This document shows positions 9,497 to 10,987 of a DNA stretch of 64,000 nt, in pieces. The notes beneath the pieces are model-generated. The model saw only the letters and a program-made list of their open reading frames with translations, made no database searches and was not told the DNA's origin. Each line of letters begins with the position of its first letter. The first letter of the stretch is position 1. The DNA lies in assembly GCA_000146465.1 (NCBI GenBank), contig CP001951.1; one strand, given 5' to 3'. Made by a program: the position numbers and the translations under genes.

Positions 9497-10987
9497 ATGA
9501 ATGTTGTTCCTCTTGGGGCTGGGCAAGACGTTGGCCGATCTTGCATCCTTGTCACTATCAACGGCAGGACAGTAATGTTCGACTGTGGAATGCACATGGG
9601 GTTTAACGACGAACGTAGATTTCCGGACTTTTCATATATTTCGAAGACAAAGAACTTCGACAAAGTAATAGACTGCATAATAATCTCCCACTTCCATCTA
9701 GATCACTGTGGAGCTCTCCCATACTTCACAGAGGTCTGTGGCTATAGCGGGCCGATTTACATGACCCTACCGACAAAGGAAGTATGTCCTGTTCTCCTGG
9801 ACGACTTCCGAAAAATAGTTGGCGGAAAGGGAGATAGCATCTTCTCATACCAAGATATAAGCAACTGTATGAAGAAAGTGGTTACCATCAGCATGAACGA
9901 GACATACAAGCATGACGAGAACTTCTACATCACTCCATACTATGCAGGACATGTTCTAGGGGCTGCAATGTTCCATGTTTCTGTTGGAGACCAGTCTGTG
10001 GTGTACACAGGTGATTATAGTACAACACCCGACAAGCATCTAGGGCCTGCTTCAATCAAGTGCATAAGACCAGACCTCCTGATCACCGAATCTACATATG
10101 GATCAATAACTAGAGACTGCAGAAGAGTAAAGGAAAGAGAATTTCTGAAGGCTGTTTCCGACTGCATAGCAAGAGGAGGTCGTGTCCTAATTCCTATATT
10201 TGCACTAGGAAGGGCTCAAGAGCTTTGCCTGCTTCTGGACGGATACTGGGAAAGGACAGGGCTTGAGATTCCGGTGTATTTCTCCAGTGGCTTGACTGAA
10301 AAAGCAAACGAGATATACAAGAAATTCATCGGTTACACAAATGAAACTGTTAAGAGGAAAATCTTCGAAAGAAATGTATTTGAGTACAAGCACATAAAAC
10401 CCTTCCAAAGGTACTACATGGATAACAAAGGCCCTATGGTCTTGTTTGCATCTCCTGGAATGCTTCATTCTGGAATGTCTCTCAGGATATTTAAAGAGTG
10501 GTGTGAGGACGAAAAGAATCTTGTGATAATACCTGGGTACTGTGTTAGAGGAACGATTGGAGAAAAGATTCTGAACGGGGCAAAGAGGTTGGAGATTCTT
10601 GGAGAGGAGAAGGATATAAAACTGGAAATCAAGAATTTAGGATTCAGTGCCCATGCAGATGCACAAGGGATTCTAAGTGTGATAGAGCAATGCGCCCCAA
10701 GGAATGTGATGCTTGTTCATGGAGAAAGGTCTCGGATGAAGCAACTCAAGAAAAGCGTTGAGGAGAGGTTTGGGATCCCGACATTTCTCCCACCAAACGG
10801 AACACTTATAAACATTCCATCGAAAAACATCGTCAACCTGAAAATAAGGAAAGGGCATCTCTCCAGTCATTTCAAGCCAAATTTATCGAAGGGGAAGATT
10901 TCTTTAAGAATGAGTCTCTCCTCAAAAAAAGAAGAAAACCATATTGATGTTGTAGATTGCGAAGATTACATAGAGGATGATGGCTAG
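9497..10987 (+). CDS. metallo-beta-lactamase/beta-CASP endonuclease of the CPSF73 family (INTS11/CPSF3L-like signature)
   Basis: [63 protein letters not shown], LVHGE. Contains only the MBL + beta-CASP core (496 aa). Confidence 0.85.
   Translation: [496 protein letters not shown]

What the first reader, a model, noticed from the sequence alone, without database searches (positions are those of the whole stretch)
9497..10987. The only CPSF73-family nuclease in the window looks like the INTS11/CPSF3L paralog rather than canonical CPSF73/Ysh1, in a fungal-related lineage
Segments such as [63 protein letters not shown] and [23 protein letters not shown] follow, to my reading, the INTS11 signature more closely than CPSF73. 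CPSF73 typically has [25 protein letters not shown] and no GPIYMT block. The protein consists only of the MBL + beta-CASP core and lacks the CPSF73 C-terminal domain. Fungi generally lack Integrator. If this is the cell's sole 3'-end endonuclease it would be an unusual substitution. The window also contains a Pcf11-like factor (47016..47930) and a tandem CCCH finger protein (37554..37910), so several 3'-processing components are present.
Basis: inference. Interest (0 to 1): 0.5.

Follow-up and report, generated by a model that had tools for sequence, protein, structure and literature searches.

The report
Truncated INTS11 nuclease in a microsporidian
This gene of the parasite Encephalitozoon intestinalis encodes the RNA-cutting subunit of the Integrator complex (INTS11); in a sister species it sits alongside the usual mRNA 3'-end nuclease, and it lacks the tail that ties it to its partner INTS9 in animals.

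Summary
The ORF at 9497..10987 (+), 496 aa, is real. The window comes from Encephalitozoon intestinalis ATCC 50506.

- PDB: 626 bits to human INTS11, 358 to human CPSF73.
- Clade profiles: 804 vs 530 bits.
- NJ tree: the INTS11|CPSF73 split has 100/100 bootstrap support, and the protein sits inside a microsporidian INTS11 clade.
- All metal-binding and catalytic motifs are intact.

The interpretation mostly fails.
- The sister species E. cuniculi has a separate canonical CPSF73 (Q8SUE4, 643 aa, PDB 8BA1), plus CPSF100 and Symplekin. Its INTS11 orthologue is a different gene (ECU10_1350, Q8SUC3).
- INTS11 is also common in early-diverging fungi. In these results it is missing only from Dikarya.
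- Many microsporidian orthologues are already named "Integrator complex subunit 11" in public databases.

One point is mildly new. All 13 microsporidian INTS11 proteins aligned stop at the CTD1/CTD2 boundary (human residue ~503). They lack CTD2, the domain that human INTS11 needs to bind INTS9.

I could not search the rest of the E. intestinalis genome. Its own CPSF73 and any INTS9 or INTS4 remain unchecked.

The parts
9497..10987 (+). Complete intron-less gene for the E. intestinalis INTS11 orthologue (496 aa plus TAG stop)
   Evidence: ORF list. 100% identical to ADM12455.1 of E. intestinalis ATCC 50506. The N-terminus aligns with all orthologues.
9497..10831 (+). Metallo-beta-lactamase / beta-CASP / RMMBL nuclease core (aa 1-445)
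   Evidence: Pfam PF16661, PF10996, PF07521. Human INTS11 aligns over aa 2-459 at 626 bits. In the AF2 model most of the core has pLDDT above 70, with a few lower loops. Foldseek's top hits are INTS11 chains.
9689..9706 (+). Motif 2, HFHLDH (aa 65-70), the zinc-binding signature. The other catalytic residues are H152, D173, E198 (human E203), H386 and H408.
   Evidence: H65, H67, D69, H70 and the other catalytic residues listed are invariant columns in 19- and 28-sequence INTS11 alignments.
10832..10984 (+). CTD1-like tail (aa 446-496): strand 448-450, short helix 452-456, beta-hairpin 470-478/483-490. The protein ends where CTD2 begins in human INTS11.
   Evidence: Aligns to human INTS11 residues ~451-503. 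Human domain limits are CTD1 450-502 and CTD2 503-600 (PMC7980224). AF2 secondary structure, pLDDT about 80. The alternating hydrophobic pattern is kept in 13 microsporidia, but pairwise identity is only 24% against 67% in the core. No IntS11_C (PF21386) match.
9458..9496 (.). 39-bp spacer shared with the divergently transcribed exosome gene Rrp4 (8756..9457, -); presumed common promoter region
   Evidence: Coordinates, sequence, Rrp4 identity. The promoter function is inferred, not tested.

Best explanation
The gene encodes the E. intestinalis orthologue of INTS11, the zinc-dependent RNA endonuclease of the Integrator complex. It was inherited vertically within Microsporidia. It is most likely an active nuclease that cuts nascent RNA polymerase II transcripts other than poly(A) sites, for example at snRNA 3' ends or in early termination. 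Ordinary mRNA 3'-end cleavage is most likely done by a separate, canonical CPSF73-CPSF100-Symplekin module. The microsporidian form is cut down: it keeps the nuclease core and a short CTD1-like tail and has lost CTD2. Any partner must therefore be held differently from the way human INTS9 is held. Shown here: orthology, intact catalytic residues, loss of CTD2 in every microsporidian examined, and a separate CPSF73 in the sister species. Inferred: nuclease activity, substrates, and the presence of CPSF73 in E. intestinalis itself.
For: Orthology: 626 bits to human INTS11 against 358 to human CPSF73 and 296 to yeast Ysh1. Against profiles built without microsporidia, 804 bits (INTS11) vs 530 bits (CPSF73). 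In the NJ tree of 21 INTS11 and 46 diverse CPSF73 sequences over 427 columns, the INTS11|CPSF73 split has 100/100 bootstrap support and the microsporidian INTS11 clade 84/100; identity is 62% to non-microsporidian INTS11 and 38% to CPSF73. Catalytic motifs are invariant. The core is strongly constrained: 1.37 bits per aligned residue, compared with 1.19 for ISWI, 0.82 for Drp1 and 0.77 for Rrp4 from the same window. Separate CPSF73: E. cuniculi Q8SUE4, with Q8SRZ4 and Q8SVB3; PDB 8ba1_A is hit by my CPSF73 C-terminal profile at E=3e-11. The E. cuniculi INTS11 orthologue is Q8SUC3 / ECU10_1350, 496 aa. Gene content of the two species is near-identical. CTD2 loss: all 13 microsporidian sequences aligned end at the CTD1/CTD2 boundary, while fungal, animal and amoebozoan ones continue. 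PF21386 is found in oyster INTS11 (E=8e-32) and not in the window protein.
Against: I could not retrieve the E. intestinalis CPSF73 itself. The last homology search, with a 107-aa E. cuniculi fragment, returned nothing, and no tool could scan the whole genome. I did not test whether Microsporidia have INTS9, INTS4 or any other Integrator subunit; the only lead is an automated 'Integrator complex subunit 4' label in Nosema bombycis. In human cells INTS11 without CTD2 neither binds INTS9 or INTS4 nor processes U7 snRNA (PMC7980224), so a canonical Integrator role cannot be assumed. The tail is poorly conserved in sequence (24%). No snRNA gene lies in the window to examine. No expression or activity data exist.
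Confidence: 0.8

Rival explanations
1. One reading: this INTS11-type enzyme has replaced CPSF73 and is the only pre-mRNA 3'-end endonuclease of the cell.
For: It is the only beta-CASP nuclease in the 64-kb window and in 10 kb beyond each end. I did not retrieve an E. intestinalis CPSF73 directly.
Against: E. cuniculi has a distinct canonical CPSF73 with CTD1-3, which forms a complex with CPSF100 and binds Symplekin. The two species share gene content outside subtelomeres. The window covers only about 3% of a 2.3-Mb genome, so absence from it carries little weight.
Confidence: 0.03
2. Orphan nuclease: Microsporidia lost INTS9 and the rest of Integrator. The CTD2-less INTS11 works alone or as a homodimer through its CTD1-like tail, as a free-standing RNA-processing or termination nuclease. 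This would be functionally closer to archaeal aCPSF1/FttA than to animal Integrator.
For: CTD2, which is indispensable for INTS9 binding in human cells, is missing in every microsporidian examined. The tail has diverged strongly; for example the G481 column of other INTS11 sequences is hydrophobic in microsporidia. Microsporidian proteomes are extremely reduced. Stand-alone beta-CASP termination factors exist and are structural neighbours (FttA 9bct).
Against: A three-strand half-barrel with a conserved hydrophobic pattern has been kept for the whole history of the phylum, which suggests a partner. The nuclease core is conserved at 62% identity to animals, fungi and an amoebozoan, including surfaces that contact INTS4 and INTS9 in the human complex; I did not map those surfaces residue by residue. 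An 'Integrator complex subunit 4' label exists in N. bombycis.
Confidence: 0.3
3. The unusually animal-like sequence (about 60% identity to human) reflects horizontal transfer from an animal host, or contamination of the assembly.
For: The identity to animal INTS11 is strikingly high for a microsporidian protein.
Against: Microsporidian sequences form their own clade outside animals, fungi and Amoebozoa, with internal branching that follows the species groups (Encephalitozoon-Ordospora, then Vairimorpha). The gene sits in a block, ISWI-Rad10-Rrp4-INTS11-MscS, that is also found in Vittaforma and, rearranged, in Vairimorpha. GC content is uniform. The same protein occurs in five E. intestinalis contigs or assemblies.
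Confidence: 0.01

Closest known systems
INTS11 (CPSF3L), catalytic subunit of the metazoan Integrator cleavage module (human PDB 7CUN, 7BFP, 7PKS; Drosophila 7SN8)
   Same: Orthologous nuclease core at about 60% identity over 458 residues. All catalytic motifs are present, including the glutamate mutated in the classic E203Q dead enzyme. A CTD1-like three-strand tail follows.
   Different: It ends at the equivalent of human residue ~503. The entire CTD2 / IntS11_C domain (human 503-600) is absent, and human INTS11 needs that domain for INTS9 binding, INTS4 recruitment and U7 processing. Partner subunits are unverified.
CPSF73 / Ysh1, the pre-mRNA 3'-end endonuclease (human 2I7V, 6V4X; yeast 6I1D; E. 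cuniculi Q8SUE4, PDB 8BA1 and 8B7T)
   Same: Same fold and catalytic chemistry, about 38% identity.
   Different: It is a paralogue, not the orthologue. The window protein has no CPSF73-type CTD2 or CTD3 (no PF11718 match), so it lacks the Symplekin-binding domain. In E. cuniculi the canonical CPSF73 is a separate gene.
INTS11 of early-diverging fungi (Mortierella, Phycomyces, Dispira, chytrids)
   Same: 55-62% identical core, and the same clade in the tree.
   Different: These proteins are 600-730 aa and keep a CTD2 region, e.g. a weak PF21386 hit in Lobosporangium (E=2e-4). Microsporidian ones are 491-513 aa and do not.
Archaeal aCPSF1 / FttA (PDB 9BCT, 3AF5, 2YCB)
   Same: A beta-CASP RNA nuclease that terminates transcription without an INTS9- or CPSF100-type pseudo-nuclease partner. 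It is a functional analogy for the 'orphan' scenario, and structurally similar (TM about 0.8).
   Different: About 30% identity, with N-terminal KH domains that are absent here; not orthologous.

Membership tests
INTS11 (Integrator catalytic subunit) | MBL + beta-CASP + RMMBL nuclease architecture | tested here: met
   Pfam PF16661, PF10996, PF07521 above gathering thresholds; AF2 model and Foldseek hits.
INTS11 (Integrator catalytic subunit) | Complete set of metal-binding and catalytic motifs (HxHxDH, H, D, E, H, H) | tested here: met
   H65, H67, D69, H70, H152, D173, E198, H386 and H408 are invariant across 28 INTS11 sequences.
INTS11 (Integrator catalytic subunit) | Orthology: groups with INTS11 and not with CPSF73 | tested here: met
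   626 vs 358 bits in PDB; 804 vs 530 bits against clade profiles; 100/100 bootstrap for the INTS11|CPSF73 split. The tree is NJ only, and CPSF100 and INTS9 were not included.
INTS11 (Integrator catalytic subunit) | CTD1 (human 450-502), which forms a beta-barrel with INTS9 CTD1 | tested here: inconclusive
   The tail aligns to human CTD1 and is predicted as three strands plus a short helix. The hydrophobic pattern is conserved, but identity is 24% and the register of strand 2 differs. Pairing was not tested.
INTS11 (Integrator catalytic subunit) | CTD2 / IntS11_C (PF21386; human 503-600), the primary INTS9 dimerisation domain | tested here: not met
   The protein ends at the CTD1/CTD2 boundary. 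No PF21386 hit, whereas oyster INTS11 gives E=8e-32. The same holds for all 13 microsporidian orthologues aligned. This weakens 'member of a canonical cleavage module', not orthology.
INTS11 (Integrator catalytic subunit) | Heterodimer with INTS9 and assembly with INTS4 and other Integrator subunits | not testable with these tools
   No whole-proteome search of a microsporidian was possible, and the homology searches were exhausted. The only lead is an automated INTS4 label in N. bombycis.
INTS11 (Integrator catalytic subunit) | Endonucleolytic cleavage of nascent Pol II transcripts (snRNA 3' ends, promoter-proximal RNA) | not testable with these tools
   Needs biochemistry or transcriptomics. 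There is no snRNA gene in the window.
CPSF73 / Ysh1 | Best sequence and phylogenetic affinity to CPSF73 | tested here: not met
CPSF73 / Ysh1 | CPSF73-type C-terminal domains (CTD1-3, PF11718) that bind CPSF100 and Symplekin | tested here: not met
   No PF11718 hit. The E. cuniculi CPSF73 C-terminal fragment finds nothing in the window. My CPSF73 C-terminal profile recognises 8ba1_A, which belongs to a different E. cuniculi gene, Q8SUE4.

The most novel reading that the evidence does not exclude
Microsporidia, the eukaryotes with the smallest genomes, keep a catalytically intact and exceptionally conserved INTS11 whose INTS9-binding CTD2 has been removed cleanly at the domain boundary. If INTS9 and most other subunits are indeed gone, this would be a natural minimal, INTS9-independent Integrator nuclease. 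It would show which part of Integrator function a cell cannot give up, and that the nuclease can work without its pseudo-nuclease partner.
Probability: 0.3. Interest if true: 0.55.

Novelty: new member of a known kind. Interest (0 to 1): 0.3.

Why it matters
As posed, an INTS11 standing in for CPSF73, the finding would have been a striking rewiring of mRNA 3'-end formation, but the evidence is against it.

What remains is smaller.
- Several Encephalitozoon records need correcting. They are labelled 'beta-lactamase fold exonuclease', 'similarity to hypothetical protein YO47_METJA', or wrongly 'CPSF3'.
- Integrator's nuclease was not lost in the fungal lineage as a whole. In these results it is absent only from Dikarya.
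- A highly reduced eukaryote retains INTS11 without CTD2. That makes Microsporidia a possible natural test case for what the minimal Integrator is, and for whether INTS11 can act without the canonical INTS9 pairing.

CPSF73-family nucleases are drug targets in other parasites. For example, the PDB holds Cryptosporidium CPSF3-inhibitor structures (6q55). A second, highly conserved paralogue is therefore worth knowing about.

Tried and rejected
1. Human CPSF73 C-terminal domain against PDB, to fish out the E. cuniculi CPSF73 sequence: no hit even at E<=10.
2. Homology search with full-length human CPSF73: returned only vertebrates, useless for diversity.
3. Representative search with CPSF73 (P0131): 150 diverse CPSF73 clusters, good for the tree and a C-terminal profile, but none identifiably microsporidian. 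The short, low-identity candidates P0382 and P0350 have non-microsporidian composition, and others turned out to be Trichomonas or Entamoeba.
4. The C-terminal profile did recover 8ba1_A, but the final homology search with that 107-aa fragment returned nothing, with only one candidate sharing words. This is probably a limit of the word index on short queries. It is not evidence of absence.
5. Foldseek against AFDB50, to look for microsporidian paralogues by organism name: library not available.
6. I tested whether the 648-aa ORF 51737..53683 could be CPSF100, which is 639 aa in E. cuniculi: no Pfam or PDB hit, rejected.
7. Extending the window by 10 kb at each end: no beta-CASP gene.
8. Supplementary gene lists of the E. 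intestinalis genome paper and of the CPSF73 paper are not held. The microsporidian transcription-machinery survey (Chanarat 2023) is not held.
9. Rfam and tRNA scans of the window: nothing, so no snRNA 3' flank to inspect.
10. Host-derived transfer or contamination was considered because of the high identity to animals. It was rejected on tree topology and synteny.

Full report
WHAT IS THERE. The ORF 9497..10987 (+) runs from ATG to TAG and encodes 496 aa. Pfam finds a metallo-beta-lactamase domain (aa 18-187), a beta-CASP domain (240-358) and the RMMBL RNA-specificity domain (373-432), all well above threshold. The protein is 100% identical to ADM12455.1 of Encephalitozoon intestinalis ATCC 50506, annotated as 'putative beta-lactamase fold-containing exonuclease'. 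The window is therefore microsporidian. That fits its compact, intron-poor gene layout and even ~40% GC. tblastn with human CPSF73, human INTS9 and a fragment of E. cuniculi CPSF73 finds no other beta-CASP locus in the window. None lies in the 10 kb beyond either end.

INTS11 OR CPSF73? Four independent lines of evidence agree.
- Against all PDB chains, the protein scores 626 bits to human INTS11 (aa 2-459), 358 bits to human CPSF73 and 296 bits to yeast Ysh1.
- Against profiles built without any microsporidian sequence, it scores 804 bits (INTS11, 11 sequences) and 530 bits (CPSF73, 46 diverse cluster representatives).
- In a neighbour-joining tree of 21 INTS11 and 46 CPSF73 sequences over 427 trimmed columns, the INTS11|CPSF73 split has 100/100 bootstrap support. 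The window protein lies in a microsporidian INTS11 clade (84/100) whose internal order follows the species groups. It is 62% identical to non-microsporidian INTS11 and 38% identical to CPSF73.
- Foldseek of an AlphaFold2 model (pLDDT 80) returns INTS11 chains as the eleven best PDB matches.

The separate microsporidian clade argues against transfer from an animal host or contamination. So does a conserved gene block, ISWI-Rad10-Rrp4-INTS11-MscS, which is also present in Vittaforma and, rearranged, in Vairimorpha.

ANATOMY. Every metal-binding and catalytic residue is present: H65, H67, D69, H70, H152, D173, E198, H386 and H408. E198 corresponds to human E203. All of these are invariant in alignments of 19 and 28 INTS11 sequences. 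The core is unusually constrained for this genome. It scores 1.37 bits per aligned residue against its best solved orthologue, compared with 1.19 for ISWI, 0.82 for the dynamin Drp1 and 0.77 for Rrp4 from the same window.

The protein is not a bare core. Residues 446-496 align with human INTS11 residues ~451-503 and are predicted as a strand, a short helix and a beta-hairpin. In the human cleavage module, CTD1 is residues 450-502 and CTD2 is 503-600 (PMC7980224). The microsporidian protein therefore stops at the CTD1/CTD2 boundary.

All 13 microsporidian orthologues aligned do the same. They come from Encephalitozoon, Ordospora, Vairimorpha, Nosema, Astathelohania, Hamiltosporidium, Vittaforma, Edhazardia, Enteropsectra and Conglomerata, and are 491-513 aa long. 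Fungal, animal and amoebozoan proteins are 597-734 aa and continue into CTD2. Pfam IntS11_C (PF21386) is found in oyster INTS11 at E=8e-32 and not in the window protein.

The tail keeps an alternating hydrophobic pattern, but it is only 24% identical among microsporidia, against 67% for the core, and strand 2 has shifted register. Whether it still forms a half-barrel with a partner is open.

IS IT THE ONLY 3'-END NUCLEASE? The evidence says no.
- Thore et al. (Open Biol 2023, PMC10688271) expressed and solved the C-terminal domains of E. cuniculi CPSF73 (UniProt Q8SUE4, 643 aa, CTD1-3) and CPSF100 (Q8SRZ4, 639 aa). They showed that CTD3 binds E. cuniculi Symplekin (Q8SVB3).
- I built a profile from 20 diverse CPSF73 C-terminal regions and recovered their chain 8ba1_A at E=3e-11. 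That protein is therefore a bona fide CPSF73.
- The E. cuniculi orthologue of the window gene is a different entry, ECU10_1350 / Q8SUC3, 496 aa.
- E. intestinalis and E. cuniculi share gene content and order outside the subtelomeres. Only 15 genes of known function are absent from E. intestinalis (PMC4355639).

The step from E. cuniculi to E. intestinalis is an inference. My attempt to pull out the E. intestinalis CPSF73 with the 107-aa fragment returned nothing. I attribute that to the word index failing on a short query. No tool could scan the whole genome.

INTEGRATOR IN FUNGI. The premise that fungi lack Integrator holds only for part of the kingdom. INTS11 orthologues at 55-62% identity were found in Mortierellomycota, Mucoromycota, Kickxellomycotina and several chytrid orders. 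None of the 120 listed hits is from Dikarya, and S. pombe is stated to lack Integrator (PMC12624956). An INTS11 in Microsporidia is thus retention of an ancestral gene. Many microsporidian orthologues already carry the name 'Integrator complex subunit 11' in NCBI or UniRef. The Encephalitozoon records do not, and one E. hellem UniRef entry is mislabelled 'CPSF3'.

HOW IT MOST LIKELY WORKS. This section is inference. An intact active site and very strong purifying selection point to an active RNA endonuclease. A separate CPSF73 module probably handles poly(A) sites. The most economical role for this protein is therefore the conserved INTS11 role: co-transcriptional cleavage of nascent Pol II transcripts that are not polyadenylated, or that need early termination (snRNA 3' ends, promoter-proximal RNA).

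Partnering is the open issue. In human cells, INTS11 lacking CTD2 does not bind INTS9, does not recruit INTS4 and does not process U7. Two outcomes are possible.
- A co-adapted partner is held through CTD1 and the core surfaces. An automated 'Integrator complex subunit 4' label in Nosema bombycis hints that some module remains.
- INTS9 is gone and the enzyme acts alone or as a homodimer, functionally closer to archaeal FttA/aCPSF1.

I give the second outcome about 0.3.

VERDICT. The orthology call is correct. The interesting interpretation, substitution for CPSF73, is not supported. The protein is a new, C-terminally truncated member of a known family, and the family assignment is already in databases for related species. 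Interest is modest (0.3). The one feature worth following is the phylum-wide clean loss of CTD2.

SIDE CLAIMS.
- The 118-aa CCCH protein (37554..37910, -) has two fingers. Its best PDB matches are ZC3H3/KIAA1064 (1e-12) and CPSF30 ZF2-ZF3 (8e-12).
- The 'Pcf11-like' ORF (47016..47930, -) has only sub-threshold Pfam matches to Pcf11 zinc-finger models and no PDB match.

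Noticed in passing
window 8756..10987; L002 3587..6542; L001 5001..7759: INTS11 lies head-to-head with the exosome cap subunit Rrp4, only 39 bp apart. The block ISWI-Rad10/ERCC1-Rrp4-INTS11-MscS-like is kept in Vittaforma corneae and, rearranged, in Vairimorpha ceranae. In both, an Mtr4/Ski2-type (DSHCT) helicase lies one or two genes from the INTS11-Rrp4-Rad10 cluster. 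It is not kept in Edhazardia. This may be plain microsporidian synteny, or co-regulation of a nuclease with the machinery that degrades its products.
   Followed up: partly
window 37554..37910 (-): A 118-aa protein with just two CCCH fingers. Best PDB matches are ZC3H3/KIAA1064 (1e-12) and fingers 2-3 of CPSF30 (8e-12), the AAUAAA-binding pair; yeast Yth1 scores only 3e-3. It could be a minimal CPSF30-like factor or a ZC3H3-type protein.
   Followed up: partly
No CID domain was detected and there is no PDB hit. The assignment is plausible but unproven.
   Followed up: partly
window 51737..53683 (-): A 648-aa ORF, called as a 644-aa gene in assembly GCA_051312795.1, with no Pfam family and no PDB relative. 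I checked it and rejected it as a candidate CPSF100.
   Followed up: partly
database records for the orthologues (E. cuniculi ECU10_1350/Q8SUC3; E. hellem UniRef100_A0A9Q9C4V7): Annotation is inconsistent within the genus: 'similarity to hypothetical protein YO47_METJA', 'beta-lactamase fold exonuclease', and in one case wrongly 'Cleavage and polyadenylation specificity factor 3'. Vairimorpha, Nosema and others are labelled 'Integrator complex subunit 11'.
   Followed up: yes
window 13832..21073 (+): A very long ORF of 2413 aa downstream of the inositol-phosphatase-like gene. Not examined.
   Followed up: no
window 60380..61171 (-) and about 58119..58457; L005 5557..5847 and 7853..8644: Other RNA-metabolism genes sit in the same window according to precomputed Pfam labels: a DcpS scavenger decapping enzyme and an Rpr2 (RNase P/MRP subunit) gene. 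This is ordinary housekeeping content.
   Followed up: no
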